Part shown: positions 25,456-40,160 of the stretch, piece after piece
How the letters are laid out: every line of letters starts with the position of its first letter
Position numbering within the stretch: the first letter of the stretch is position 1
Sequence record: PV292302.1
Origin: Escherichia phage Jgk1
Strand: one strand, 5' to 3'
DNA: 64,000 nucleotides
Notes under the pieces: generated by a model
Databases searched by the model: none
Seen by the model: the letters and a program-made list of their open reading frames with translations, nothing else
Told to the model about the DNA's origin: nothing
Made by a program: the position numbers and the translations under genes

Positions 25456-25860
25456 ATGAACTATGTAAAAGAAATTGATGAGGATGAACCAGTCCTGGTC
25501 AGTAACAAGTATTACTATGCTCCTAGTGAACGCCTTATGTGTAACTCATGCGGAACAGTAAGTAGTAATCATCACATAGGTACTGTATTTCTATGGAAGC
25601 ACGCCAGTTGGCCTAAAGACTGGAATCCCCAATGGGTTACTCTTCATACTTGTAAACGGTGTGGAAGAAATGTTGAGAAAGACTTTAGTCATTCATTCAC
25701 TGACCAAGGTAATTACGAGTGTGACGAAACAGCTGATATTAACAAATGGGAAAAAGAACTCTCAGATTTAGAAGCTGAAGTAGAAGACCTTAAGTTTAAA
25801 ATCAAAAGGGGCAGAGCTCGTTGGGCTGAACTCTGGGAAACAGATGAAGATGCAAACTGA
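25456..25860 (+). CDS. hypothetical Cys-rich (zinc-ribbon-like) protein
   Basis: CNSCG ... CKRCG pairs; ATG at 25456 preferred because the upstream 48 nt form an inverted repeat. Confidence 0.4.
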   Translation: MNYVKEIDEDEPVLVSNKYYYAPSERLMCNSCGTVSSNHHIGTVFLWKHASWPKDWNPQWVTLHTCKRCGRNVEKDFSHSFTDQGNYECDETADINKWEKELSDLEAEVEDLKFKIKRGRARWAELWETDEDAN

Positions 25861-26101
25861 TATCCATCCTATGGAAGAGTACATAGATGCTCTTGTCACT
25901 TGTGAATTAGCCATGATGATGGCTATTAAAGATAAGAAGCAACCTAACTTTTCAGTACGAATGTGTGCTGCCAGGATGTCTCTTAAATGCTCTAACCCAA
26001 TGAACAAGAAGTTGTTTCTTGGAGTGAGCAAAGCTGAATCACCTGCTGCAATGATTTACCATTTCAGAACTATGCTGGATGAGGAAATCTCTCGTGTTTA
26101 A
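25844..26101 (+). CDS. hypothetical protein
   Basis: 85-aa ORF overlapping the upstream stop. Confidence 0.3.
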   Translation: MKMQTDIHPMEEYIDALVTCELAMMMAIKDKKQPNFSVRMCAARMSLKCSNPMNKKLFLGVSKAESPAAMIYHFRTMLDEEISRV

Positions 26102-26279
26102 ATATTTCATTCGATACCAGAATGGAGGTGCTAATTCTTTTGTGGGTGGTAAAGCCCATGAAGGTAAAAAAGCATTTCACATTAAAACAGGTAAATGCAC
26201 TGTACTTGTACCATACGCTTGGTACAAAGATGGTGAAGTTCAAGAATTAGTTGATAAAGCAGATAAGTTTGTAGTATAA
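26079..26279 (+). CDS. hypothetical protein
   Basis: 66-aa ORF ending directly before the tRNA cluster. Confidence 0.3.
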   Translation: MRKSLVFKYFIRYQNGGANSFVGGKAHEGKKAFHIKTGKCTVLVPYAWYKDGEVQELVDKADKFVV

Positions 26280-26289
26280 AGATTTCCAC

Positions 26290-26371
26290 GGGGGAGTAGT
26301 CAAGCGGTCGAAGACGGCAGACTGTAAATCTGTTATCCCACACGGTAGTTCGAATCTACCCTCCCCCACCA
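26290..26371 (+). tRNA. tRNA-Tyr (anticodon GTA), type II with long variable arm
   Basis: acceptor GGGGGAG/CTCCCCC, anticodon arm GCAGA-CTGTAAA-TCTGT, T-arm GGTAG-TTCGAAT-CTACC, encoded CCA. Confidence 0.7.
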
Positions 26372-26372
26372 C

Positions 26373-26447
26373 GGTAAGTTAGCTAAATGGTGAAGCGGCT
26401 GACTGTTAATCAGTGATAGAGTGGTTCGAGTCCACTACTTACCGCCA
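26373..26447 (+). tRNA. tRNA-Asn (anticodon GTT)
   Basis: acceptor GGTAAGT/ACTTACC, anticodon loop CTGTTAA, T-arm AGTGG-TTCGAGT-CCACT, encoded CCA. Confidence 0.7.
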
Positions 26448-26452
26448 TATTA

Positions 26453-26529
26453 CGGAGTTTAGCTCAGTCTGGTAGAGCATCTGCTTTGGGAGCAGAGGGT
26501 CGTAGGTTCGAGTCCTGCAATTCCGACCA
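26453..26529 (+). tRNA. tRNA-Pro (anticodon TGG)
   Basis: canonical D-arm GCTC-AGTCTGGTA-GAGC, anticodon arm TCTGC-TTTGGGA-GCAGA, T-arm GTAGG-TTCGAGT-CCTGC, encoded CCA. Confidence 0.75.
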
Positions 26530-26631
26530 AACAATGCGTCGTTAGCTCAAACAAGGAGAGAGCGTGGGTCCGGTAGCTCCGGGTTAAACCCAAGGTTGGG
26601 AGTGCAAGTCTCCTGCGGCGTACCAAACAAT

Positions 26632-26707
26632 TAGGGGTTAGTTCAGTTGGTAGAACATCGGACTTTGATTCCGAATGTCACAGGTTCGAATCCTGTACCC
26701 CTTGCCA
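26632..26707 (+). tRNA. tRNA-Gln (anticodon TTG)
   Basis: D-arm GTTC-AGTTGGTA-GAAC, anticodon arm TCGGA-CTTTGAT-TCCGA, T-arm ACAGG-TTCGAAT-CCTGT, discriminator G, CCA. Confidence 0.75.
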
Positions 26708-26709
26708 AT

Positions 26710-26785
26710 TGCTTCATAGCTCAGCAGGTAGAGCGTTCCCCTGATAAGGGAGAGGTCACTGGTTCGAACCCAGTTGAAGCAACCA
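26710..26785 (+). tRNA. tRNA-Ile (anticodon GAT)
   Basis: acceptor TGCTTCA/TGAAGCA, D-arm GCTC-AGCAGGTA-GAGC, anticodon loop CTGATAA, T-arm ACTGG-TTCGAAC-CCAGT, CCA. Confidence 0.75.
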
Positions 26786-27834
26786 ACATCCTATCAATGA
26801 GTACACTTGATTGAGGTCAGAAGATGAAATGAAGCTTCTGTAAAATGAATCCACAGAGTGTGCTCTTTGATAGTTTTCGTAAGCGATTATGCGGTTTTTT
26901 AGAAACGAACCAAAAACATAAATGCAAACGATGATGTTGTTCTGATGGCTGCTTAATTGCATAACCATTAGTCAGGAGTGAGTCGTCCTGATTATCAAAC
27001 GACCGTGGAGTTCTCCCGTCCATGTATTAGAAACGGGAGGCCAACTATGACCAGAGTAGCATGGGGCAAATGCACGGTTAGCTGCCGGGATGAGGGTTCG
27101 AATCCCCAGATGGTCAAAGTCCAGACGATATCTGAGTGACTTTAAAAACAGATGGAGCCAGGTGGAATCCCTGGCAATTAATACATACCATTGGCTTTAC
27201 AACACAAGTCCAACAGTTGGGCATAGGGCAGCAACCCTATAATCAGGTGAACGAGAACTTGTCTGGTAGTTGGTATGTAACCCCAACCGTTTCAGAAGAT
27301 GCAGGCAAGACCACGCAGCCCGTTGATAAACGTAGTGGCTGCTGGACAAGATGTAAAACGAGGCGTCGTTACACGCCTATCGTCACCATCTGAAAGGTAA
27401 ACGGTTTGCAACCGTACTAAATTCCAGGATATCAGCACTAGGTATAGCCATAATGTAATGCGCAACAGTTAAGGTAAGCCAACAAGTGTTTGGTTGATGT
27501 AGTCAGGGTTCATGGCCTGATTAGAAGGTTCGATTCCTTCTCCTGGAACCAATTCAAAGTAGCACTGTATCTTTAAATGTTTCCCGGCATTCAAAGCACA
27601 CACCGTGACAGTGCTACCCTGAATTGAAAGAATTATGGGGGCGAGGTCGTTAATACGACGGCGTAAGTACCAGATGAGACTTCTGGACGCCCCTACCACA
27701 TTCTGAACCAGTAAAGAAACATCCGAACTAACTATTAACTCTTAATGAGTGAAATAAGAAGTCCCCAAGGGGTTGGGTGAGATAACGCTATATCTGAGGA
27801 AGCAGGTAAGAATCCTGCATGGTTCACCAGTTAA

Positions 27835-27967
27835 GTCCGTTTAGCTCAGGGGTTAGAGCACGAGAGCCAAAGCATCGTTTCTACTTCGGTAGACAGCCTA
27901 GCTGGTCAAACGACAACGACTCGGTGTGAGGCCAGAGGTCATTGGTTCAAATCCAATAACGGACTCC
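27835..27967 (+). ncRNA. tRNA-like RNA with about 58-nt central insertion (no canonical anticodon arm)
   Basis: perfect 7-bp acceptor GTCCGTT/AACGGAC, canonical D-arm TAGCTCAGGGGTTAGAGCA, canonical T-arm ATTGG-TTCAAAT-CCAAT; the 80 nt between them include a UUCG-tetraloop hairpin and no 5-7-5 anticodon stem-loop. Confidence 0.3.
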
Positions 27968-28200
27968 CTATTAAGCAGTAACACAGTCCTGATTGCATAG
28001 CACTCTAAAGGCATCACTGGTAAGACAGTCCAGTGGCTGTTATATTGAAAACCATACCCCCGACAAGGTGTATGGAGTATGAGCAGACTATAATGCTCGC
28101 TAAGGAAACAGAGAAACGGACTATCAATCCATGTCTGCTTGACTCTTAAAGTGTTTCACTGATTTCCTGCCTAGCCTCGTTGACTGCGTTAAAGTCACTA

Positions 28201-28233
28201 AGTCCCCCTAGCACCACATAGGGGGACTTTTTT
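28201..28233 (+). terminator. rho-independent terminator closing the tRNA / structured-RNA region
   Basis: 9-bp stem AGTCCCCCT/AGGGGGACT followed by TTTTTT. Confidence 0.6.
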
Positions 28234-28271
28234 ATTTGAGTAACTACACTCGTTTCAGGAAAAAAAGAAAA

Positions 28272-28640
28272 ATGAAACTATTAGACTTACCAAATGAAAT
28301 TCGCAACGCAGTTCTTCAAAGTGCTATGCGTGTAATGTCTGAGTCAACAGACATGGCTCACATGTTACAGAAAGCAGACTTGCTACTTAATCATGACTTC
28401 CCTGAACTATCTTCAAGATGCCTATCTGTAGAACAGGCCGAAGAACTCGTAGCCAAAGCCAAATGGATTGCTGAATTCACCAAGGTATTCGAGGTGTTCT
28501 GGGCTAACTCTGGGTATCCTCGTAAGCATTGGCGTAGTACTTTGAATGGTGAGTTATCCACTTGGATTTATGGTGATGAGTGGAAGAATTCAGATGCTGC
28601 ATCAGCAGCTAAATCAAACATCTCCTACTGGGAAAATTAG
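28272..28640 (+). CDS. hypothetical protein
   Basis: ATG at 28272 (MKLLDLPNEIRNAV...); the ORF-track start at 28236 runs into the terminator. Confidence 0.4.
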   Translation: MKLLDLPNEIRNAVLQSAMRVMSESTDMAHMLQKADLLLNHDFPELSSRCLSVEQAEELVAKAKWIAEFTKVFEVFWANSGYPRKHWRSTLNGELSTWIYGDEWKNSDAASAAKSNISYWEN

Positions 28641-29816: not shown

Positions 29817-32800
29817 TTAGTTAACAATGTTCATCCACGGGTTAAGGTTATGAGCACGAAGCCCTTGACCGAAGCCCCATGAGTAATCCAGTTTGCCCTG
29901 TGCTGCAATACTGAAAATGTTGTCCTGAATAGGCAAACCAACGTTACCAAACATAGTAGGAGTTGGAGCCAACATTGCCATTGCTGCATGGACTGGGTTA
30001 TTACGAACCATAGATACGGCAACCTTAGCTGAACGAATCTTAAAGTTGTAGAACCACATCAGACCCATGCTTTCCATATAACCACGGAAACGACCAGGCA
30101 AACGGTCATAGTTAACGAACTCTTCAGTAACACGTCCAAGTGCTTCTTCACGAGTCTTGCCTTTACGCTTAGTCAGTTCATCATAGATGATTGCTTTAGC
30201 GATAAAGTCAGAGTACTCAACAGTCTTCTGAATACCCTGGAACAATGCAGTATCTTTAGTGATAAGAGCATAACGTCCAGCAGTACGAACAGCCTTAGGC
30301 AGTTTATTAGCCAGTGCATCCATGTACTCGTAAATCTTACCCTCAGTAATGAGAATATCATCACGACCGATACCAGCATCAGCGATAGAAGAAAACTCAC
30401 CTGCTTCTAACAGAGGCCAGATACTCATACGCTTATGACTATCAGTAATGGACTGAATCTCAGCCTTAAGCTTACGAATCTGGTTCGGATTAGTAGCTGC
30501 ACGTAATTCAGCTTCTGCATCAACCTGACGAAGACGAGATTTCAGATACTGGTTAATCTCACTGGTTTTCTGTGGGATACCTTGAGCAATATTCTTCAGA
30601 GGTACACCACGAGCAACCATCTGGTAAAGGTTAGCAATGAAGTTAACCGCAGGTACTACGACCGATTTAACAACAATCAGAGTCTTAGCATCTTTAATCA
30701 GGTTCTGAATAAGGTTCTCACCACCCATAGTGTACTTGTAAGCATTGTTACCCATTGCACCAAGCAGAGCTTTCTTAAAGGTACTCAGTGTCTCCGGTGA
30801 CCAACGACTATTACCAGACCATACATCACCCACAGAAGCAGCACGATAACCAAGTGCATCATTTAGCATGTCACGACGTACCCATAGTTCACCTTCACCA
30901 AACAGGCTTTCAGCTTTACGGCGAGTTTCTGCATTCATCAGTCGCAGAGCATCAGCAGTTACTGGGTCAAGTTTGGAACCAAGAAGGTTCACGTACTGGG
31001 ACTTATTGGATGCAGAGTCAGAGATATCCTTCTCGTACATAGCATGTAAGTTTTCAATCAGTACATCGTTAAACTGCTGTGCTTTGGCTTCTTCAACCTG
31101 ACGACCACGCCATACACCAATTGCTTTGGCAAGATGGTCATCACCAGCAATGTGCTGCAACATGTTAGGGTCAATGGATTGCTCATAAGCAACCACACGA
31201 CCGTTGTTATCGTAAATTGGCATCAGTGGTTCATTACCACGTTCACCACGAGCCAGGGCTTTAGAGATACGTTCTACGGATGGTTTGTCAGTAATACGAC
31301 CTGCAACCATAGCACCCATCGTGAAGCCTGTTCCCATATCAACACCATTAGCAGTATCACGCACGTTCTGAAGGATACCCTGAGAGAACGGGGCTTGTGC
31401 CTGTACTGGTGAGAAGTAGTAGCTGCGAGCACGACCACGGTCAGCAGAGCTACCCTGATAAGCACCTAAACGGGTGTAAGACTTCTCAAGCAGTTCTGAA
31501 TACTGGCTGTCATCTGCAACGATAAGGTTAACACCCTGTTTATTTTCAACAGGAATGTAACCCTTATAGTGGTTAAGAGCAGCACGGTCATCAGCACTGG
31601 CTTTAGTCATCTCGTCTTTACGCTGACCCACCAGATAAGAAGTAGCAAAGTCGATACCATCAGTTTCACTTTGAGCCAGTGAAGATAATGATTCCCGGTC
31701 AGCTTTGCTCATTGCTTCCAGAGCATAGAGGGTAATCAGCTTATCCAGTTTAGCTACATCAACCGTAGACTTAACAGCAGTACGCTCACCCAGCAGACGA
31801 GAGATAGCAGTAGCATTACGAAGCAGGTTGTTACCAACAGTACCATTAATCATAAACTGAGCCAGTTGCTTAGACTTACGGTTAATCAGAGGCCAGTTAC
31901 GACCAGCCTGATTCTGCAAGTCTGCTTCCAGTTTATTAACTTCACGGTCAACAATCTTCTGGTCAGATAGCAGGTCACGAATCTCAGCTAATGACATGGT
32001 ATCACGTAGTACAGCCAGGTCAGTTTTACCCATACCAGTATGCATCGCTTTCCATTCTTCTTTAGTCAGCTTACGGCTGAACTTAGAAGCAATGGTAGTT
32101 GGCAGATGCTCACGGAATTGCTGACGGTCAGCCTGTATCTGAGAACGCACTGCCTTAATCAAATCGTACACAGAAGCATTGCTCTTAGTACGACCAGTAA
32201 GGTCATTAATCAAGTCATGGAAAGGTTGCCATACCTTACCCTGGTTCATTGCTTTCATAACACCTTCAGCAACAATCTGGCCATTCTCTTCAGTAGCTAC
32301 AGCAGCAACCAGTTGTGCAGCATGAGCAGTTGCTTTAACCAGTGGATTTTTAGCAGTCTGTGCAACAGTACGTGCTTTATCCAGAGTGGCATCAGCCAGT
32401 TGAGTAATACCATCAATAACGTACTGATTAGCACGGTCAATAGCATTTCCGGTTGGGGTAGCAACTGAGTCATAGAAGGACTGAGCATTCAGGCTACTTT
32501 CCATAATGGTCTGAGCCAGAGCATCCATACCCTCCTGTACATTAGTAGCTTTACTGTCACCAGCAATGCGAGCATTCAAACTAGCCATTGCAGAAGTACC
32601 AATGTTAGTCAGCATTGCATCAACAGTATTACCAGTTACCTTATCTGCTTTCATGACGGGCATTTCAGCCAGTACATTGCGTAATTCTTCACTTACCATT
32701 GCCAGACCAACAAAAGTAGGCAGTAAGGAAGAACGACCCTGAGCATCAAACTCAATATTGTTAGCACCAGTAATGGTGTCGAACTTCTGCTGTGCGTAGT

Positions 32801-35800
32801 AGCGGTCAGCAGGGTTAGTGCTATTAGGGTCTGCCATGAAACTTTCAACAGTCAGGTTCTTAGTCACATGTGCATAGTATTCCTGTGCACGAGACAGAGC
32901 AGCAGGACTGATTGCAGCTTCAGTAGCGAGAGCAGCAACGATATTAGTAAATAGACGCTGTTCCTGCATGTTCATGGTAAAACCGTGACCCTGTACATCA
33001 CGGGTAACTTTGGTTGCATTAACCAGAGCATCAGAGAATTTACCCTTACGGATATACTGCTGTACTGGTTCATTACCCAGGTAGTTAACAATCAGGTTAT
33101 CAAACGTCTGACCCAGTTCTGCAAGACGGTCATTGTTACCGTAAGCGGTACTATGGAACAGGGTTGTATCTTTGGATACAGCAGCAGTTGGAGCCTGAGA
33201 ACGCATAACTACAGCAGAGTTAAACAGCAGGTTAGAGAACATATCATCAGAGTTAGCAGGTGCTTTCTTACGCCCGAATACCAGACGCTTAATTGCATCA
33301 TACACAGACTGAATCATAGCTTTCAGTGCAGAGGTCTTCTTCTGTTTAGCTGCCAGTTCACGGTTGGTTAAACCCCAAGCCATGTACTCGTTAAGAGCAG
33401 CAGACTTAGCCAGTGCTGGTTCAATGAAGCCATTAGACAGATGTCCATTAATGGTGTTAAGAGCATCAGCATAAGCTTCACGCATAGCTGGAGACTCTTT
33501 ACTAACATCCAGTGTACGGAACTGATTCATCAGGTCTTCAATGTTCTGTACTGCTTCATTAGGAGTACCCTCGTAGTGAGCCAATACGCTTTCGAATGTG
33601 GAAGCGTGAACCAGTTCATGAACCAGGGTTTCCAGTGAATGGGTAACTAGGTAAATGGTTTTATCTTCAAAATTTGTCCAGCCATATGCATTACCTGCTT
33701 CAGCAGCTTCCATATCTTCTGGAGCCGGACGAGTAATGTTCTTCTCAACAGCGTAAGCATCTAGTTGAGCAAGAGTACCGTAGACAACTTTATAGTCTTT
33801 AGCAGCCTGAGACTTTTGAATCTCATTCAGCACTGCTTGCTGTTCAGGAGTCATTTCCTTAAGCAGCTTAGTGATTGCAGTGTTAGACAGCAGACGTACA
33901 CCAGACTTAAGAACACGACCTACTTGTTCCATAGCCGGAACTTCTTTAACTGGTTCTGCTTTATCAGCACGAACAGCATCGCGTCGTTTATTCAATTCTG
34001 CATCGAACAGTTCGTTCAGCTTAGCTACCTGCTGGTCTACAGTCAGACCTTCCAGAATAACCTGCCCATTGTTCACGTAAGGAGAACCAACAGCAGCCAT
34101 TTGGTCAACAGTTGTCTGTACTTGATTCATTACTGTATGACGGATATCCACACCAAGGGCAATGTTACGCAGGTTACGTTCAATCTGAGTAGCAGCCATC
34201 ATCAGGTCTTGGTCGGTTGCACCTTCACGGAGTTCAAACTCCAGAGCAGACTTACCAATAGCTTTCTTGGTTTCATCAGACAACTTAGAGAAGTCAACGT
34301 TCTTCATGAACTTAGCATAAGAGTTATATACATCTTTGATAGGGTTACCCTGCCATGAAGTGTATACAGCTTCGTTAGCTTTTTGACTTGCATCAGTAAT
34401 GTCATTAATACCAATGTTCATACCATCAAAGATTTTGAGAGTATTTTTTGGAGCACCTTTCATAGTAGAAAGGGTCTGCATCATCATCCCATCACCAGTA
34501 CCAATGGTCATGAATGGGATACCAGCAACACCTGCCTGAGATGGTGCATAGATGCTCATTGGCACACGCATACGGTCATCAAAGTTAGTAGCCAGTACCT
34601 GATTAGCAACATCAGTATTCTCACTACCAGCAATGTAGAAAGTCTGGGAACCAGTCTCAATCATTGGAGCCAGAGGAGCTAAGCTAGCCTGGATGTCATT
34701 CAGTTCTTTCTGAGTTAAGAAATCACCCTTCTTCCAGGTAGGGTCTTTTTCTTTTTCTGCCAGTTTGTCTTGTACAGCTTGCTGGAACATGTCTTGCAGA
34801 ACCAAAGACTGAATCTGAGTAGCCTTCTGAAGTTGTTCAGTAGAGTACATCAGACCCTCACCCACAGTATTCTGAATACCAGTACGCATTGGTTCAACGA
34901 ACAAGTGCAGCATATTCTCTTGCAGGTTTTTCAGAGCATCACCTTTAACGGTGAATTTCTGTGGGTCGAGCTTACCTGTGATAGCACCATCGGCTGGCTG
35001 TACTGAGAGCTGGCCTTTACGCATAACAGTTACGTTACCAGTAAGGGCTTCCATAGAATCCAGGAAAGTTTTCAGCATAGCCTCAGCATCGGCCTCAGAC
35101 GCTGCCTCTTTGCCGAACATAGCCATAGCCGGGGAAATGTCCGGGTTCTTAGCACGGGCTTGCAGAACGTCACTGAAGCGTTCGTAGATGGTGTCAGTAA
35201 TTGCACTAACCATCTTGCCAGCAATACCACGAGCACCCGAACCATAAATGGTAATGGTCAGAGGGTTCTTAGCGATACCACGTTTAAGGTCAAGTGACCC
35301 ATCCTCATTCAGGTTAAAGTCCTTGATGAACAAGTCCATTAAGTTCTGAAGGTGATTCATCTGGTTCATTACAGGAACATTGTTACTGTATGCATTACGC
35401 AGTTCATTCAGAGCTTGTTGTAGGCTATTAGTGGATGCTTCATACAGGTCAACGCTGTCATCCTGTGAACGATGTTCGTTCATAGTCTTACCACGCTTAC
35501 CAAAGAACAGACCACCTTTAGCAGTATTGCGAATCCAGTCTGGAGTGAACTTACCACCAGTCATTAATACCATTGCGTTAATAGGACCGTTAGTAACACC
35601 ATCTGCTTCTACATACAGTGGGGTAGTAAACTTAGTCTTATCTTCAGCATTCAGGTAACGGGCATATTCCATCAGAGCCATGAGAGCTACGAATGACTTG
35701 TCTCCACCCAGAGCAGTATCAAGAATACTTACTGCATCAGTAGGCAGATTACCTGACTTATCAAATTCAACCATCATATCTACAGCAGGTTTCAGTTTAC

Positions 35801-38800
35801 CTTCCAGAGCAGTAGTAAGTTTCTCAGACATGGCTTCACGAGACATGTTGTGAACTTTAATACCGAGTGCCTGAGCCAGGCCAACCTGGAAATCAGAGAA
35901 GGTCTGTGAGTTCTGGTTAGAAACATCAATGGTAGAGAATGTAGGTAAGATAGCCTCACGAACCAGTTTACTAGACTGTGGGTTGTTCTTACCAAGCATC
36001 TGCATACGACCAACACGGGTCATGTTGTAAGCATAATGGATAGGGGTTTCCAACCCTGCTTCTTGTTCCTGAACTTGTGACACAACACCAAACAGAGAAT
36101 CATATGCCATAGCTACCGAGAGGTTTTTACCTTCCAGTGACTTAGCAGTATTCACATTCAGTAATTCAGGGTTCAGAGTACCAGCACCCATTAATTCCAG
36201 AATGTTGTCACGTCCCATAGCTTCATAGAACTTAACCATTGGTTCATGAACACGGAACTCAGTAGCCTGTTCTGCTTTCAGGGCAGCTTTCTGTTCAGGG
36301 GTATTCTTAACAGCAGGGTTACGTAGCTGAGTTTGAGCCACGGAAGGTACATCATCACCGAAGTACATTTTCTCTTCTGGTTCCACAAGCACTGCTTCTT
36401 CAATGGCAGTTGGGAACTTGTTGATAGCATCGTTATCGTCAAGCTTCTCAATGGTATACAGACCAATAGTCTTGTTAGAGTCTGGGTCAATCTCAGACAC
36501 ATCAAGCATGGACTCAGTAACTTCACCTATTTCTACCAGAGAGGACAGAATCTCAGTAGCCATAGCCATTGGGATACCTTTGGTATAACCCAGTGGTGCA
36601 TCAGGATTACGATTAAGTCCCCAGTAAGACTCAATCTTTTGAGCCAGGGAGTTAGTAGCTTCGACCAGGGTCTGTGCATTATCAAAACTAGCCAAAATAC
36701 CTTCAGGCAGCAGAGATGCATCAATGCCAGTAATAGCAGCAATGTCTTTGATGTCTTTGGTAGCAGCATTCTGATTAGCAGTTAAACGCCATTGCAGTCC
36801 AGCAAGTACAGCAGTTTCAAGCAACTGGTCATTGAACTTGAAGGTATCCCCATCAGCTTCAACAATGTTCAGTAACTTACCACCAACCCAACGGTTAGCC
36901 TCAGTACCTTCAGCAAAGCGTTTGCCAACATTTTTATTAGCAAGGAACTTAGCCAGACGGTCTGACATGGTATTTTTCAGCTTGTCACCAAAGTCCATCA
37001 GAGTCTTATAACGGGCAATGACATCTGGAGTAAGTGCAGCATTCTCACTCTGAGTGAACGTTTCAAAACGTGCAGCAGAAGACAGTGCCTGACCTACATC
37101 TTTCAGAGGAGACTCAGTACCAACGATACGAGACTTAGGCTCAATTGGAAGACTGAAAGCTTTAAGGAATTGGTTAGGTGTCTTCTCTGTATTATGCAGA
37201 GGATACACATTTTCCATTTCTGTTTTAGCTTCAACAGGTTCCTCAATAGCAATTGCCTTTTCAGACTCTGGATTAGTTACTTCTTCTGATTTTGGTTTAG
37301 TCTCATTAACAGGAGCAGTATTTTCTACCACTGGTTCTGCCTTAGGAGTTACAGTAGGTTTAGCCTCCTGAGTTTTTGCAGGAGTTTCATCAACCTGATT
37401 CACTGGTTCAGTAGTCTGTTGGGATTGAGCAACATCAAGATTGCCTTGACGGAACTCTTTAACCACCTGGGCAGCAGGCTTGTCCAGACGTGAATCCAAT
37501 GAGGTAACTTTAACATGAGAGACATTAAGCTCCGGGTAAGCCGTAGCAAGTGCATTAGCAATATCAGCTACGGTTTTGGCTTCCAGTCCTACTTGCTGGG
37601 CAAACTTAACAGACTTGGTATCGTAAGGATTAACACCGAGTCCAGTACGGCTGCGTACCCATTCACGGGATGGAGAAAGAGCCTCATAATGGACAGACTT
37701 ATTCTTATCCGCATTCCCAGAAACCAAATGCTCATTCAACGCTCCGACCTTATTCTGCATGTGCTGGGCGAACTTCATAAAGTCGTCAAGGTAAGCGGAG
37801 GCCAAATCGAAGTTACCAGAGTTGTACGCAGAGCGAATGCGTTTAGCATGTTGCAACGCAGAGTACTGGCCTTCGTTAGAACGAGACTCATCGGTCTTAA
37901 TTTGTTTACTAACGATGTCCTGAGGTCGTAAACCCAACTCCTCTGCCTTGGTATCGAACTCTCGTGCTCCCTGTAATACAGCAGCAGCAGATTGCAGGGC
38001 AGCACGTTGACGGTTACCCAGAGTAATTTTCCCTTCACTAGCATGTTTCAGAACCATGTTAACTGAATCGGCATCCAGTACTTCTGGAGAGATATCAGCA
38101 GCCATAGCAATATTATCTGCTTGTTGTTGAGTAGTATTCTCAGTAGCCTTCAACTGACCAGCTTCAGCTTGTTCCTGAATCATAGAGTGAATAGCACGGA
38201 AAGCACGAAGTACCTTAGGGGTATTCTGCACGTTAGCCATTAAGCCAGAGAACTGGTCAACAATAGCAGCAGCAGGGCTGTCCTTAGGCAGGTTATTAAG
38301 AGCACCTGGGTCACGATTAATGAAGCTATCCAGTGACATGATGTTGTCATACATGTTCACAGCAGCTTCCATCTGCACGTTAGGGTCTTCGGCAGTATTA
38401 ACCAAATCTGCCATCTTCTGAATAGCATCAACACGGTTAGTAGACTGAGCTACTGCCTCACGAACAACAGGGTGAGCTTGTTCCATTTCCACAGGGTCAA
38501 AGTTAACAGCCTGTGTCAGGTCATTTGCATACTGGTGTGCAGCAGCTTTCTCTTCTGGAGAAATATTCATAGCATCAACAGCATCAGCAACAGTGGTCTG
38601 TGCTTGTTCTGCTTGTTGAGCAGCTTCTTGTGCAGCAGCATTAACCGTAGCATCAGCAACAGGGGAAGCCTGTTCATTCTGCTTAGCAAGGTTTTCACCA
38701 CGTTGAACCAGGATGTTAGTAATTGGGGATGCAGCTTTAGCTACCACATTACCAGCAGCATTAAGACCAGCCAGGGTAGTACGGATAGCAGGACCAGCAG

Positions 38801-40160
38801 CAATACTTGCTGAACCAGCAGCAGCACCAGGAGCTTGAGCAACCCCAGCAGAGCCAAAGCCATAAAGAGCACCCAGACCAGCTTGCTCACCAACACCTTT
38901 AAGAATGTCACGTTTTTCATCGACATTGCTCTTAATTGCACGGTTCTGTGCATACTGACCAGCACCCGATTGAATACCTTCTTCAACCGTCTCACGAAGC
39001 ATGTTGGAGCCAGCACCAGCCAGTGAACCTACCTTCAGTGGATTAAGTTCAAACTTGGATACCAGTGGACCAGTTGCAGCAGCTACAGGAGCAGTGATTG
39101 CAGCAGCATCAATACCAGTTTCAGATGCAGTCTGACGACGTGCCTCATCTGGGGTCATACCATCAGCAATATGCTGTTTGTATAACGGAGACTTAGCCAG
39201 TAGTTCAGAGTGAGGCATCTTCATAATTTCAGATGCAGTTTGTTGATAAGCACCACCAGCTTCCATTGCACCAATAGCAATGGCAGGGGCAGCAATAGTA
39301 CCAGCTTTAATAGCAGCAGTTGCTGGCTTATAGCCAAGCTCAGAAGCGAGAGTAATACCCTTAACGGCTTTCTCACCGAGCATAACTTTACCCAGTGCAG
39401 ATACACCACGAATCAGTGGACCACCTGTAAACAGGGAACCAACACCTTCCGCTAGCCCATCAGTTGCTGCCATCCCATTATCGAGAGTATTGGCAACAGA
39501 GTCGAAAGCGTCACGACCAATGCGAGACAAAGAAGCAACAAGAGGACTTTCACCATCTTTAATTTCCTGGTCATATTTGAATTGGTTAGCTTGTGCAGAA
39601 ATCTGGTTCTGATTAGCTACAACTTTACGGGTTGCATTAAGTGCATCAGACTGTAGACCATGCATCCCTTCATTCAGCCAATCCATTCCAGAAGCAATGG
39701 TTGCCCCAGCATTATCATTGAGTAAACCTGCACCAAGAGCAGCAATGCCCCCAAAGGTATTAGCAACACCAAGACCAACACCAGAAGCAGTATCACCCAG
39801 TGCTTGTGCATTAGAACGTTCCATTGAAAGGTCTTGACGTACTGCATCAGCAGCATTGGCACGACTGTTAAGAATCTGGAATCCTTGCTCAGTACCGTAC
39901 TTAGTAATGATTTCCATAGGGGAGGCTTGCGTAAAATCAGCCTGAAGGGAACCTGGAGTGAAGGCATCAATACCTAAATTACCGACACGACCTGTCTGGA
40001 GATTATAGGCATTCTCTGGGGTTAATTGGAAAGGGCTTTGCCCTTGTTCAGCTTGCTTCTGAGAGGTTGCAGTAGAGACATCGACTTGCTTAGCATTAGT
40101 GATGCTGTCTGCGAAACCTGCCAGACGGTCAAATGTTGACATGGCTTGTTTCCTGTTCAA
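29817..40160 (-). CDS. giant virion-encapsidated RNA polymerase (N4 gp50-like vRNAP)
   Basis: single uninterrupted 3447-aa ORF, terminal gene of the minus-strand late block, as in N4 (about 3500 aa); AGGA RBS. Confidence 0.8.
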   Translation of the reverse strand: MNRKQAMSTFDRLAGFADSITNAKQVDVSTATSQKQAEQGQSPFQLTPENAYNLQTGRVGNLGIDAFTPGSLQADFTQASPMEIITKYGTEQGFQILNSRANAADAVRQDLSMERSNAQALGDTASGVGLGVANTFGGIAALGAGLLNDNAGATIASGMDWLNEGMHGLQSDALNATRKVVANQNQISAQANQFKYDQEIKDGESPLVASLSRIGRDAFDSVANTLDNGMAATDGLAEGVGSLFTGGPLIRGVSALGKVMLGEKAVKGITLASELGYKPATAAIKAGTIAAPAIAIGAMEAGGAYQQTASEIMKMPHSELLAKSPLYKQHIADGMTPDEARRQTASETGIDAAAITAPVAAATGPLVSKFELNPLKVGSLAGAGSNMLRETVEEGIQSGAGQYAQNRAIKSNVDEKRDILKGVGEQAGLGALYGFGSAGVAQAPGAAAGSASIAAGPAIRTTLAGLNAAGNVVAKAASPITNILVQRGENLAKQNEQASPVADATVNAAAQEAAQQAEQAQTTVADAVDAMNISPEEKAAAHQYANDLTQAVNFDPVEMEQAHPVVREAVAQSTNRVDAIQKMADLVNTAEDPNVQMEAAVNMYDNIMSLDSFINRDPGALNNLPKDSPAAAIVDQFSGLMANVQNTPKVLRAFRAIHSMIQEQAEAGQLKATENTTQQQADNIAMAADISPEVLDADSVNMVLKHASEGKITLGNRQRAALQSAAAVLQGAREFDTKAEELGLRPQDIVSKQIKTDESRSNEGQYSALQHAKRIRSAYNSGNFDLASAYLDDFMKFAQHMQNKVGALNEHLVSGNADKNKSVHYEALSPSREWVRSRTGLGVNPYDTKSVKFAQQVGLEAKTVADIANALATAYPELNVSHVKVTSLDSRLDKPAAQVVKEFRQGNLDVAQSQQTTEPVNQVDETPAKTQEAKPTVTPKAEPVVENTAPVNETKPKSEEVTNPESEKAIAIEEPVEAKTEMENVYPLHNTEKTPNQFLKAFSLPIEPKSRIVGTESPLKDVGQALSSAARFETFTQSENAALTPDVIARYKTLMDFGDKLKNTMSDRLAKFLANKNVGKRFAEGTEANRWVGGKLLNIVEADGDTFKFNDQLLETAVLAGLQWRLTANQNAATKDIKDIAAITGIDASLLPEGILASFDNAQTLVEATNSLAQKIESYWGLNRNPDAPLGYTKGIPMAMATEILSSLVEIGEVTESMLDVSEIDPDSNKTIGLYTIEKLDDNDAINKFPTAIEEAVLVEPEEKMYFGDDVPSVAQTQLRNPAVKNTPEQKAALKAEQATEFRVHEPMVKFYEAMGRDNILELMGAGTLNPELLNVNTAKSLEGKNLSVAMAYDSLFGVVSQVQEQEAGLETPIHYAYNMTRVGRMQMLGKNNPQSSKLVREAILPTFSTIDVSNQNSQTFSDFQVGLAQALGIKVHNMSREAMSEKLTTALEGKLKPAVDMMVEFDKSGNLPTDAVSILDTALGGDKSFVALMALMEYARYLNAEDKTKFTTPLYVEADGVTNGPINAMVLMTGGKFTPDWIRNTAKGGLFFGKRGKTMNEHRSQDDSVDLYEASTNSLQQALNELRNAYSNNVPVMNQMNHLQNLMDLFIKDFNLNEDGSLDLKRGIAKNPLTITIYGSGARGIAGKMVSAITDTIYERFSDVLQARAKNPDISPAMAMFGKEAASEADAEAMLKTFLDSMEALTGNVTVMRKGQLSVQPADGAITGKLDPQKFTVKGDALKNLQENMLHLFVEPMRTGIQNTVGEGLMYSTEQLQKATQIQSLVLQDMFQQAVQDKLAEKEKDPTWKKGDFLTQKELNDIQASLAPLAPMIETGSQTFYIAGSENTDVANQVLATNFDDRMRVPMSIYAPSQAGVAGIPFMTIGTGDGMMMQTLSTMKGAPKNTLKIFDGMNIGINDITDASQKANEAVYTSWQGNPIKDVYNSYAKFMKNVDFSKLSDETKKAIGKSALEFELREGATDQDLMMAATQIERNLRNIALGVDIRHTVMNQVQTTVDQMAAVGSPYVNNGQVILEGLTVDQQVAKLNELFDAELNKRRDAVRADKAEPVKEVPAMEQVGRVLKSGVRLLSNTAITKLLKEMTPEQQAVLNEIQKSQAAKDYKVVYGTLAQLDAYAVEKNITRPAPEDMEAAEAGNAYGWTNFEDKTIYLVTHSLETLVHELVHASTFESVLAHYEGTPNEAVQNIEDLMNQFRTLDVSKESPAMREAYADALNTINGHLSNGFIEPALAKSAALNEYMAWGLTNRELAAKQKKTSALKAMIQSVYDAIKRLVFGRKKAPANSDDMFSNLLFNSAVVMRSQAPTAAVSKDTTLFHSTAYGNNDRLAELGQTFDNLIVNYLGNEPVQQYIRKGKFSDALVNATKVTRDVQGHGFTMNMQEQRLFTNIVAALATEAAISPAALSRAQEYYAHVTKNLTVESFMADPNSTNPADRYYAQQKFDTITGANNIEFDAQGRSSLLPTFVGLAMVSEELRNVLAEMPVMKADKVTGNTVDAMLTNIGTSAMASLNARIAGDSKATNVQEGMDALAQTIMESSLNAQSFYDSVATPTGNAIDRANQYVIDGITQLADATLDKARTVAQTAKNPLVKATAHAAQLVAAVATEENGQIVAEGVMKAMNQGKVWQPFHDLINDLTGRTKSNASVYDLIKAVRSQIQADRQQFREHLPTTIASKFSRKLTKEEWKAMHTGMGKTDLAVLRDTMSLAEIRDLLSDQKIVDREVNKLEADLQNQAGRNWPLINRKSKQLAQFMINGTVGNNLLRNATAISRLLGERTAVKSTVDVAKLDKLITLYALEAMSKADRESLSSLAQSETDGIDFATSYLVGQRKDEMTKASADDRAALNHYKGYIPVENKQGVNLIVADDSQYSELLEKSYTRLGAYQGSSADRGRARSYYFSPVQAQAPFSQGILQNVRDTANGVDMGTGFTMGAMVAGRITDKPSVERISKALARGERGNEPLMPIYDNNGRVVAYEQSIDPNMLQHIAGDDHLAKAIGVWRGRQVEEAKAQQFNDVLIENLHAMYEKDISDSASNKSQYVNLLGSKLDPVTADALRLMNAETRRKAESLFGEGELWVRRDMLNDALGYRAASVGDVWSGNSRWSPETLSTFKKALLGAMGNNAYKYTMGGENLIQNLIKDAKTLIVVKSVVVPAVNFIANLYQMVARGVPLKNIAQGIPQKTSEINQYLKSRLRQVDAEAELRAATNPNQIRKLKAEIQSITDSHKRMSIWPLLEAGEFSSIADAGIGRDDILITEGKIYEYMDALANKLPKAVRTAGRYALITKDTALFQGIQKTVEYSDFIAKAIIYDELTKRKGKTREEALGRVTEEFVNYDRLPGRFRGYMESMGLMWFYNFKIRSAKVAVSMVRNNPVHAAMAMLAPTPTMFGNVGLPIQDNIFSIAAQGKLDYSWGFGQGLRAHNLNPWMNIVN

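What the first reader, a model, noticed from the sequence alone, without database searches (positions are those of the whole stretch)
27423..27551. Second tRNA-like element: perfect acceptor pairing across 129 nt, canonical T-arm, and a hairpin with an 8-nt loop
TCCAGGA (27423-27429) pairs perfectly with TCCTGGA (27541-27547), followed by discriminator A and CCA. A canonical T-arm GAAGG-TTCGATT-CCTTC sits at 27524-27540. The only anticodon-like hairpin is TCAGG-GTTCATGG-CCTGA at 27503-27520, with an 8-nt rather than 7-nt loop, and the D-arm region is degenerate. The pattern parallels the element at 27835-27967, suggesting a family of expanded tRNA-like RNAs rather than random decay.
Basis: seen in the sequence. 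Interest (0 to 1): 0.6.

Follow-up and report, generated by a model that had tools for sequence, protein, structure and literature searches.

The report
Conserved phage tRNA-like RNA gene
This stretch is a real, conserved gene for a 129-base RNA that copies the ends and elbow of a transfer RNA but carries a long extra hairpin and an odd, almost unchanging "anticodon" hairpin. It is laid out like the T4 phage "species 1" RNA, whose job has been unknown for 50 years.

Summary
The window comes from an N4-like phage. The element sits in a non-coding stretch downstream of its five-tRNA array.

I found 18 related copies in four phage groups: Enquatrovirinae N4-likes, Cbunavirus, Stephanstirmvirinae and Erwinia phage Gungnir39. 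Three of them are one decayed form. Fourteen were aligned:
- 97.9% of stem positions pair, and 10 of 24 pairs show compensatory double changes (5 of 7 in the acceptor stem).
- The 15 copies checked all have U at -1; all 18 end in NCCA.

The "degenerate D region" is ordered. It is a 4-bp stem abutting the acceptor, a 54-66-nt hairpin (variable in sequence, conserved as structure), then an invariant GG. The anticodon-like hairpin really has an 8-bp stem and an 8-nt loop, (G/A)(U/G)UCAYG(G/A), nearly invariant in sequence. No junction nucleotides remain.

ARAGORN and Rfam do not call it, it has no conserved ORF, and it has no E. coli homologue.

T4 rnaC has the same layout but no detectable sequence relation.

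Best reading: an RNase P-matured tRNA mimic that does not decode and that some factor recognises through the invariant hairpin. The function is inferred, not shown.

The neighbour at 27835-27967 is a different family.

The parts
27423..27429 (+). 5' strand of the 7-bp acceptor stem (UCCAGGA). Position -1 (27422) is U.
   Evidence: 7/7 pairing in every full-length copy parsed. Five of 7 pairs have compensatory double changes. U at -1 in 15/15 copies.
27430..27433 (+). 5' strand of the 4-bp D-like stem (UAUC). It abuts the acceptor with no linker.
   Evidence: Pairs with 27496-27499. 100% paired in 14 sequences; 3 of 4 pairs show double changes.
27434..27489 (+). Long hairpin inserted in the D-loop position: A27434 plus a 55-nt imperfect hairpin of 17 bp.
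   Evidence: A 54-66-nt hairpin of 17-25 bp is present in all 13 members first collected. The sequence differs between lineages but pairing is kept through compensatory changes within lineages: 13 double-change pairs in the Stephanstirmvirinae set and 4 in the Cbunavirus set.
27490..27495 (+). Unpaired UUGGUU on the 3' side of the long hairpin, with an invariant GG at 27492-27493. It is a candidate equivalent of D-loop G18-G19.
   Evidence: GG followed by 1-3 pyrimidines in all 13 members first collected. Contact with the T loop is inferred, not tested.
27496..27499 (+). 3' strand of the D-like stem (GAUG).
27500..27523 (+). Anticodon-like hairpin: 8-bp stem UAGUCAGG/CCUGAUUA and 8-nt loop GUUCAUGG (27508-27515). 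Its sequence is nearly invariant across the family.
   Evidence: Stem 97.3% paired. Four of 8 pairs never vary in 14 sequences, while the acceptor varies freely. Loop consensus (G/A)(U/G)UCAYG(G/A).
27524..27540 (+). T arm GAAGG-UUCGAUU-CCUUC with a canonical T loop.
27541..27551 (+). 3' acceptor strand UCCUGGA, discriminator A27548 and genome-encoded CCA (27549-27551).
   Evidence: NCCA in all copies. All five ordinary tRNAs of the window also encode CCA.
26290..26785 (+). Context: array of five ordinary tRNA genes (Tyr, Asn, Pro, Gln, Ile) on the same strand, upstream.
   Evidence: ARAGORN and Rfam.
28200..28229 (+). Context: the only + strand terminator-like site in 25800-28500, and a strong one. 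It lies at the end of the ORF-poor, RNA-rich stretch 26786-28230, and the coding ORFs resume downstream.

Best explanation
27423-27551 is a gene for a roughly 129-nt tRNA-like RNA.

Inferred biogenesis: it is transcribed with the phage's tRNA/ncRNA array and cut out like a tRNA. RNase P would cut at the U(-1)/U1 junction, and 3' trimming would stop at the encoded ACCA.

Fold (supported by covariation): a four-way junction with no unpaired junction nucleotides. The acceptor and T arm form an ordinary tRNA top half with a canonical T loop. A 4-bp D-like stem carries a long hairpin followed by a conserved GG. That GG probably takes the G18-G19 role at the elbow.

Why it is unlikely to decode: the fourth arm is an 8-bp stem with an 8-nt loop, and U8, A9, position 26 and the variable loop are all missing.

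Inferred function: it acts as a tRNA mimic. The tRNA-like top half provides maturation, stability and entry to tRNA-binding machinery. The almost invariant hairpin AGUCAGG-NNUCAYGN-CCUGA is the site that a conserved enterobacterial or phage factor reads sequence-specifically. A bait for a tRNA-directed enzyme or nuclease is one candidate.

Status of each step: the gene and its fold are well supported; processing is inferred from tRNA-like features; the mimic or decoy function is inference only.
For: Family and structure:
- 18 copies in four phage groups, three of them one decayed form.
- In 14 aligned sequences 97.9% of cells pair, 10 pairs show double changes, and 0 of 500 shuffles reach this. 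Sliding the partners drops pairing to 34-53%.
- G-U pairs occur in the acceptor, D-like and anticodon-like stems. These are valid only in + strand RNA.
- The long hairpin is kept by compensatory changes within lineages.
- Covariance model R1 scores full-length family members at 91-132 bits and the decayed copies at 57. Ordinary tRNAs score 38 bits or less, so the family is discrete.

Processing features:
- U at -1 in 15/15 copies, NCCA in all copies, and spacers of 4-9 nt after the upstream tRNA's CCA in several lineages.

What is excluded:
- No conserved ORF.
- No homologue in 5,426 E. coli genomes.
- No exact match to the hairpin-plus-T-loop pattern in the GTDB species genomes.

Sequence constraint and precedent:
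- The hairpin sequence stays constant while the acceptor covaries freely.
- T4 rnaC has the same arm order and, like this family, a variable long arm next to an invariant hairpin. It is described as a small stable RNA (record annotation) and was detected by Northern blot (PMC9697503).
Against: - There is no expression or end-mapping data for this RNA.
- No binding partner is known. Function cannot be read from the sequence.
- Invariance of the hairpin is partly an ascertainment effect, because BLAST and my first pattern both relied on it. A search keyed only on the T arm and acceptor did find two more intact members. It also found three copies of one form that has lost the 5' half of the hairpin. 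So the hairpin can be lost, or those copies are dead.
- Phage VTCCBPA_322 has UCACG instead of UCAUG in the loop.
- Only about seven independent lineages exist, so covariation counts are inflated by shared ancestry.
- Shigella phage Moo19 lacks the whole region, so it is dispensable for an N4-like phage in the laboratory.
Confidence: 0.55

Rival explanations
1. It is a working, unusual tRNA. It would be charged (for example by MetRS through the CAU in the loop) and used in translation as a quadruplet (AUGA) reader, a UGA suppressor (UCA) or a special initiator.
For: - Intact acceptor, T arm and NCCA; the discriminator is A in most copies.
- The 8-nt loop keeps UCA in every copy that retains the hairpin and CAU in all of those but one.
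- 8-nt anticodon loops are known in frameshift suppressors and in a yeast mitochondrial tRNA-Thr (PMC3113583, listed).
Against: - The stem below the loop is 8 bp rather than 5.
- U8, A9, position 26 and the variable loop are absent.
- A 55-nt hairpin sits in the D loop.
- With UCA or CAU as the anticodon, position 33 or 37 is non-canonical in some lineages: G before UCA in the Stephanstirmvirinae copies, U after UCA.
- The acceptor sequence varies freely, so there is no fixed acceptor identity set.
- ARAGORN and the Rfam tRNA model reject it.
Confidence: 0.1
2. The tRNA-like frame is only a carrier. It provides RNase P and exonuclease processing and stability for the long hairpin, which is the functional part (a protein-binding or regulatory RNA). 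Alternatively it merely punctuates a long ncRNA transcript.
For: - The long hairpin is maintained by compensatory changes.
- The window holds several other NCCA-ended structured units in a row: 26536-26625 and 27637-27698.
- tRNA scaffolds are known to stabilise inserted RNAs in E. coli (PMC3753655, listed).
Against: - The long hairpin is the least conserved part in sequence.
- The nearly invariant part is the other hairpin, which this model leaves unexplained.
- No complement of 12 nt or more to the arm exists elsewhere in the 64-kb window.
Confidence: 0.15
3. It is a decaying tRNA pseudogene, for example a tRNA-Asn that picked up insertions, or a chance pairing with no function.
For: - Ordinary tRNAs that share its T arm and acceptor 3' motif are tRNA-Asn in 11 of 12 cases, so descent from a tRNA-Asn is plausible.
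- Decayed copies exist (L022, L037, L038).
- Moo19 has lost the region.
Against: - The same architecture is kept in four unrelated phage groups, with compensatory changes in all four core helices and in the long hairpin.
- U(-1) and NCCA are kept in every copy.
- Chance pairing alone has p of about 0.013 even before conservation is considered.
Confidence: 0.05
4. It is the tRNA-like partner of the tmRNA-like tag module (ANDDVVLMAA*) found upstream in the same RNA-rich region. Together they would form a split trans-translation RNA.
For: - In contig L021 the family element lies about 100 nt downstream of the tag module and is followed by a terminator.
- In every N4-like locus examined that carries the tag module, some tRNA-like unit follows it.
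Against: - There is no G3-U70 alanine identity pair; position 3:70 is C-G or A-U.
- The acceptor stem closes in cis, so nothing ties it to the tag module.
- Cbunavirus, Stephanstirmvirinae and Gungnir39 copies have no tag module in the DNA fetched around them, and VTCCBPA_322 lacks it.
- In the window the two are about 470 nt apart.
Confidence: 0.05

Closest known systems
Bacteriophage T4 rnaC (species 1 RNA; T4 genome 70908-71046), a 139-nt RNA annotated as small and stable, encoded at the end of the T4 tRNA cluster, function unknown
   Same: - Same arm order: acceptor stem, short D-like stem abutting it (AGG/CCU), roughly 60-nt hairpin followed by GG, long-stemmed hairpin with a non-7-nt loop (10 bp, 6 nt), canonical T arm, 3' acceptor strand.
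- Same conservation pattern. In Karamvirus relatives the acceptor and T stem covary, the long arm is replaced outright in EnC15, and the second hairpin GUAG-CGUCAA-CUAC is invariant.
- Both lie in phage tRNA arrays, and neither is in Rfam.
- The function of rnaC is still stated as unknown (PMC3014915; PMC9697503).
   Different: - No detectable sequence relation. Model R1 does not hit rnaC, and BLAST of each finds only its own family.
- The rnaC acceptor has two conserved U-U mismatches.
- rnaC has 8 nt between the D-like stem and the hairpin and 1 nt before the T arm. This family has none.
- The invariant hairpins differ in sequence and loop size.
- CCA is not encoded after rnaC.
Canonical bacterial or phage tRNA (Rfam RF00005), in particular phage tRNA-Asn
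   Same: - 7-bp acceptor, 5-bp T stem, T loop UUCGAUU, discriminator plus CCA, U at -1, and a position inside a tRNA array.
- The T arm and acceptor 3' motif is shared with tRNA-Asn(GUU) genes of other viral contigs.
- R1 scores ordinary tRNAs at 20-38 bits through these parts.
   Different: - 129 nt long, with a 55-nt hairpin in the D loop.
- 8-bp stem and 8-nt loop in place of the anticodon arm.
- No U8, A9, position 26 or variable loop.
- Not called by ARAGORN or RF00005.
tRNA-like domain of tmRNA (RF00023) and two-piece tmRNAs
   Same: A tRNA top half (acceptor, T arm, CCA) joined to a long helix in a non-decoding RNA. A tmRNA-like tag frame lies in the same region of this phage.
   Different: - No G3-U70.
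- No mRNA-like region inside the molecule.
- The long helix leaves from the D side, and a separate hairpin occupies the anticodon side.
- No ARAGORN or Rfam tmRNA hit at these coordinates.
YrlA / bacterial Y RNA-like RNAs (RF02553), which contain a tRNA-mimicking module
   Same: Non-coding tRNA mimicry with a T arm and a D-like element. Some YrlA genes are phage-borne (my own knowledge, not tested here).
   Different: - In YrlA the RNA ends form the Ro-binding stem, not an acceptor with CCA.
- RF02553 gives only weak hits (16-20 bits, gathering score 69) elsewhere in the region and none on this element.

Membership tests
Canonical tRNA (RF00005) | 7-bp acceptor stem, discriminator and 3' CCA | tested here: met
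   7/7 pairs and ACCA.
Canonical tRNA (RF00005) | 5-bp T stem with 7-nt T loop UUCRANY | tested here: met
   GAAGG-UUCGAUU-CCUUC.
Canonical tRNA (RF00005) | D arm with a 3-4-bp stem and a 7-11-nt loop containing G18-G19 | tested here: not met
   The 4-bp stem and a GG are present, but the loop holds a 55-nt hairpin.
Canonical tRNA (RF00005) | 5-bp anticodon stem, 7-nt loop with U33 and a purine at 37 | tested here: not met
   8-bp stem and 8-nt loop.
Canonical tRNA (RF00005) | Junction nucleotides U8, N9, N26 and a variable loop of 4 nt or more | tested here: not met
   All four helices abut. Columns 8 and 90 covary as a pair.
Canonical tRNA (RF00005) | Recognised by tRNA detectors | tested here: not met
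   No ARAGORN call. No RF00005 match even at E up to 10.
T4 rnaC (species 1 RNA) family | Detectable sequence homology to T4 rnaC | tested here: not met
   R1 does not hit L007 2909-3047. BLAST with rnaC returns T4-like (Straboviridae) phages.
T4 rnaC (species 1 RNA) family | Arm order: acceptor, D-like stem, long hairpin plus GG, long-stemmed hairpin, T arm | tested here: met
   Searches compared.
T4 rnaC (species 1 RNA) family | Encoded in or beside a phage tRNA array on the same strand | tested here: met
T4 rnaC (species 1 RNA) family | Accumulates as a discrete stable RNA of about 130-140 nt | not testable with these tools
   Needs a Northern blot or RNA-seq of infected cells.
tmRNA tRNA-like domain | G3-U70 alanine identity pair | tested here: not met
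   Position 3:70 is C-G in 12 sequences and A-U in 2.
tmRNA tRNA-like domain | Tag reading frame within the same RNA, between the acceptor strands | tested here: not met
   No conserved ORF in the element. The tag-like frame is at 26924-26956, outside it.
Frameshift-suppressor type tRNA (8-nt anticodon loop) | 8-nt anticodon loop | tested here: met
   Loop GUUCAUGG at 27508-27515.
Frameshift-suppressor type tRNA (8-nt anticodon loop) | Otherwise canonical tRNA body able to span the decoding and peptidyl-transferase centres | tested here: not met
   3 extra base pairs in the stem, no junction nucleotides, and a D-loop hairpin.
YrlA / Y RNA-like (RF02553) | Match to the Rfam model, with 5' and 3' ends forming the Ro-binding stem | tested here: not met
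   No RF02553 match on 27423-27551. The ends form an acceptor stem with CCA.
YrlA / Y RNA-like (RF02553) | Ro60 (Rsr) gene nearby | not tested
   The proteins of the window were not searched for Rsr.

The most novel reading that the evidence does not exclude
The RNA is a dedicated anti-defence bait.

Its invariant hairpin copies a host anticodon arm. The closest host look-alike I could find is the initiator tRNA-fMet arm, UCGGG-CUCAUAA-CCCGA. The element's UCAGG-GUUCAUGG-CCUGA differs in the stem only by a compensated G-C to A-U pair and keeps U-CAU in the loop. The fMet sequence was verified. The chance of such a match is roughly 1%, estimated after the fact.

The extra loop nucleotide and the longer stem would make the RNA a non-productive substrate. 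It could then soak up an anticodon-loop nuclease or another tRNA-directed defence or toxin. VapC-type toxins are known, from my own knowledge, to cut tRNA-fMet there.

If so, T4 rnaC, with the same layout and a 6-nt loop, would be the same kind of device, and its 50-year-old puzzle would have an answer.
Probability: 0.12. Interest if true: 0.85.

Novelty: new variant of a known kind. Interest (0 to 1): 0.6.

Why it matters
Phage tRNA arrays are usually read only for their tRNAs. This result shows that they also carry conserved tRNA-shaped RNAs that detectors skip, and that annotators overwrite with spurious ORFs (as in PQ360875).

This family gives T4's unexplained species 1 RNA an independent structural counterpart in N4-like, phi92-like and other enterobacterial phages. 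The shared design is a tRNA top half, a D-loop hairpin and an invariant pseudo-anticodon hairpin. It now looks like a recurring solution rather than a T4 oddity.

That makes the old question of what these RNAs do testable. The hairpin can be mutated, its binding partner can be pulled down, and phage mutants can be challenged with tRNA-targeting defences.

Tried and rejected
- **Standard detectors.** ARAGORN and Rfam, at gathering scores and at E up to 10, make no call on the element.
- **Homology to T4 rnaC.** Rejected by the covariance model and by BLAST. Only the architecture is shared.
- **Same family as 27835-27967.** Rejected.
- **Protein coding.** Most of the six frames carry stops and no frame stays open across lineages.
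- **Antisense guide.** The arm and the whole element have no complement of 12 nt or more elsewhere in the window. The single 11-mer match is within chance expectation.
- **Host or prophage origin.** No match in 5,426 E. coli genomes. No exact pattern match in the GTDB species genomes.
- **Loop-to-arm pseudoknot.** Possum's arm contains CAUGAAC, complementary to the loop, but other lineages lack it (by eye). Dropped.
- **Shine-Dalgarno plus mini-ORF in the hairpin** (AGGAG..AUG ACC UGA in the Stephanstirmvirinae copies). Not conserved in the other lineages, and the spacing is too short. Dropped.
- **T-loop mimicry by GUUCAUGG.** The AGUCAUGA variants do not fit. Dropped.
- **tmRNA partner.** No G3-U70, and most lineages lack the tag module.
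- **Sigma-70 promoter scan.** Uninformative for an N4-like phage.
- **Literature.** Searches found no description of this family.

Full report
**Setting.** The window comes from an N4-like podovirus. It carries a 3,447-aa virion RNA polymerase ORF at 29817-40160 on the minus strand. That gene is about 83% identical to Gamaleyavirus phages. Five ordinary tRNA genes lie at 26290-26785. An ORF-poor, RNA-rich stretch follows, and it ends at a strong terminator at 28200-28229. The finding lies inside this stretch.

**The observation.**
- A perfect 7-mer partner for the acceptor 3' strand within 200 nt upstream arises in 1.3% of shuffles.
- A whole-window scan for "T arm plus 7/7 acceptor" returns four of the five called tRNAs, this element and 27835-27968. 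All are on the + strand, and there are none on the - strand.
- The folding z-score alone is modest at -2.15.

**Relatives.** BLAST, pattern scans of IMG/VR and metagenomes, and a T-arm/acceptor-based scan recovered 18 related copies:
- Enquatrovirinae N4-likes: the window, Escherichia phage VTCCBPA_322, and contigs L021 and L032.
- Three decayed copies, L022, L037 and L038. Their upstream flank resembles that of the N4-like copies.
- Cbunavirus: Pectobacterium phage Possum and contigs L005, L006 and L008. BLAST also matched Horatius and Arno152, which I did not fetch.
- Stephanstirmvirinae myoviruses: phi1_175008, FKP3, FBKp34 and contigs L009-L011.
- The unclassified 48.6-kb Erwinia phage Gungnir39.

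All isolate hosts are Enterobacterales. There is one copy per genome, almost always inside or at the end of a tRNA array. There is no match in 5,426 E. coli genomes and no exact pattern match in the GTDB genomes.

**Structure.** All members fold the same way:
- a 7-bp acceptor stem;
- a 4-bp stem directly abutting it (NAUC/GAUN; UGAC/GUUA in L032);
- inside that stem, a 54-66-nt imperfect hairpin followed by an unpaired stretch with an invariant GG and 1-3 pyrimidines;
- an 8-bp stem (YAGUCAGG/CCUGRYUR) with an 8-nt loop (G/A)(U/G)UCAYG(G/A);
- a canonical T arm, the acceptor 3' strand, a discriminator and CCA.

Covariation on 14 sequences (on 11):
- 97.9% of cells are standard pairs.
- Ten of 24 pairs show changes on both sides: 5 of 7 in the acceptor, 3 of 4 in the D-like stem, and one each in the other two stems.
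- 0 of 500 shuffles reach this.
- Sliding the partners by 1-3 columns drops pairing to 34-53%.

G-U pairs fix the strand as +. The long hairpin differs in sequence between lineages but keeps its pairing by compensatory changes within them. A covariance model scores full-length members at 91-132 bits, decayed copies at 57 and ordinary tRNAs at 38 or less.

**What is tRNA-like and what is not.**
- Kept: the acceptor stem, a T loop with the standard UUCGAUU, a GG that can play G18-G19, NCCA, U at -1 in 15/15 copies, and tRNA-type spacers. These are the features used by RNase P, 3' trimming enzymes and other readers of the tRNA top half (established knowledge).
- Lost: U8, A9, position 26, the variable loop, the 5-bp/7-nt anticodon arm and a normal D loop.

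ARAGORN and Rfam therefore reject it. There is no conserved ORF.

**Origin.** Ordinary tRNAs that share its T arm and acceptor 3' motif are tRNA-Asn in 11 of 12 cases. Descent from a phage tRNA-Asn is plausible.

**Conservation pattern.** The acceptor covaries freely. In contrast, the core of the pseudo-anticodon hairpin is constant in sequence, stem included. This points to sequence-specific recognition of that hairpin, and to a partner that is itself conserved across enterobacterial hosts or across these phages.

Caveat: my searches partly selected for this hairpin. The one search that did not found two intact members. It also found three copies of one form that has lost the hairpin's 5' half.

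**Closest known.** T4 rnaC (species 1 RNA) folds with the same arm order. It shows the same pattern among Karamvirus relatives: covarying acceptor and T stems, a long arm that has been replaced outright, an invariant second hairpin, and a GG after the long arm. No sequence relation is detectable. rnaC is not in Rfam. Its role is still called unknown (PMC3014915; PMC9697503; PMC12685909).

**Mechanism.**
- Shown: a conserved, strand-specific RNA structure.
- Inferred from tRNA biology: maturation by RNase P and 3' trimming, a stable product, and an intact elbow.
- Inferred from the conservation pattern: it does not decode, and it acts as a tRNA mimic read through the invariant hairpin.

A specific lead concerns E. 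coli initiator tRNA. The hairpin resembles its anticodon arm, with the same stem apart from one compensated pair and with U-CAU in the loop. I verified the fMet sequence. The background rate of a 4/5 stem match was about 1 in 85 phage tRNAs. This lead is post hoc and untested.

**The neighbouring element.** 27835-27967 has a normal D arm and about 60 extra nucleotides in the anticodon region. It has a homologue in Pseudomonas phage Littlefix. Model R1 does not hit it. It belongs to the same loose class but to a different family.

**Verdict.** This is a real, conserved and unannotated tRNA-like RNA gene. It is a new variant of the T4 species-1 kind, and its function is unknown but now testable.

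Noticed in passing
window 26831-26956 (tag frame 26924-26956, + strand); also L019 768, L020 1051, L021 3966(-), L032 7295(-): A tmRNA-like tag reading frame, GCA AAC GAT GAT GTT GTT CTG ATG GCT GCT TAA (ANDDVVLMAA*), preceded by an A-rich leader. It is conserved in Bp4, Klebsiella phage PW7 and two N4-like contigs. Four of its 5 substitutions are synonymous third-position changes. Rfam tmRNA_permuted (RF04321) scores 28.9-34.7 bits, below the gathering score of 47. ARAGORN calls no tmRNA, and I found no G3-U70 acceptor next to it. This may be a phage trans-translation-like RNA and deserves its own study.
   Followed up: partly
window 27835-27967 (+); L015 1197-1333; L014 663-735: A second expanded tRNA-like unit: normal acceptor, D arm and T arm, with about 60 nt inserted in the anticodon region, ending UCCC rather than NCCA. 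It has a homologue in Pseudomonas phage Littlefix. A GAGCCA-like repeat flanks the insert. In Shigella phage Moo19 the annotated tRNA-Ile is a chimera of the tRNA-Ile 5' part and this unit's 3' part. Moo19 has therefore lost the whole ncRNA region in between.
   Followed up: partly
window 26536-26625 (+): A 90-nt tRNA-like unit between tRNA-Pro and tRNA-Gln. Its acceptor GCGUCGU/GCGGCGU has three G-U pairs. It has a normal D arm, an anticodon stem UGGGU/ACCCA with an 18-nt loop that holds a small hairpin, a T arm with the odd loop UGCAAGU, and it ends ACCA. Neither ARAGORN nor Rfam calls it.
   Followed up: no
window 27046-27116 (+): A degenerate tRNA-like unit just after the tag module, with a GGG-UUCGAAU-CCC T arm, a weak acceptor and no CCA. 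At the same position Bp4 and L032 have a 'tRNA-Cys(aca)'-like gene and PW7 has a 124-nt expanded unit.
   Followed up: partly
window 27637-27698 (+); L002 about 2530-2595: A 62-nt unit with a 7-bp terminal stem GGGGGCG/CGCCCCU followed by ACCA. It encloses two hairpins. One abuts the 3' strand like a T arm but has no T-loop consensus. It is conserved in VTCCBPA_322.
   Followed up: no
window 27119-27178 (+); L002 1940-1995; L019, L020, L032: A highly conserved module, GUCCAGACGAUAUCUGAGUGAC...GCCAGG-UGGAAUC-CCUGGC. In L002 and L032 the family element follows it directly. In the window 240 nt (27179-27422) are inserted between them. Its CCAGG/CCUGG arms match the acceptor strands of the element, so alternative pairing is possible.
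   Followed up: no
L002 2134-2257; L009 6266-6373 and L011 1461-1568; L012 about 1283-1345: Other expanded tRNA-like units, with acceptor, T arm and mostly NCCA, lie next to the family element in related phages. The L002 type is 124 nt and ends ACUGAUAACCA. Its 3' end and downstream flank are shared by about 20 Gamaleyavirus records. Expanded tRNA-like RNAs therefore look like a general feature of these arrays.
   Followed up: partly
L004 2646-2720, L009 7862-7934, L011 2791-2865: ARAGORN calls a tRNA with anticodon CUA, labelled 'tRNA-Pyl', in the Stephanstirmvirinae-type tRNA arrays. This may be an amber-suppressor-type tRNA.
   Followed up: no
L004 1337-1666 (PQ360875 CDS XKX17528.1); also other hits listed: Public records annotate 'hypothetical protein' ORFs across tRNA-Leu and the tRNA-like element, or across the ncRNA region generally. 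These are very likely spurious calls over RNA genes.
   Followed up: no
L001 1269-1343: The tRNA-Asn of Pectobacterium phage Possum has anticodon AUU rather than GUU, according to both ARAGORN and the record. Related contigs L005 and L006 have GUU.
   Followed up: no
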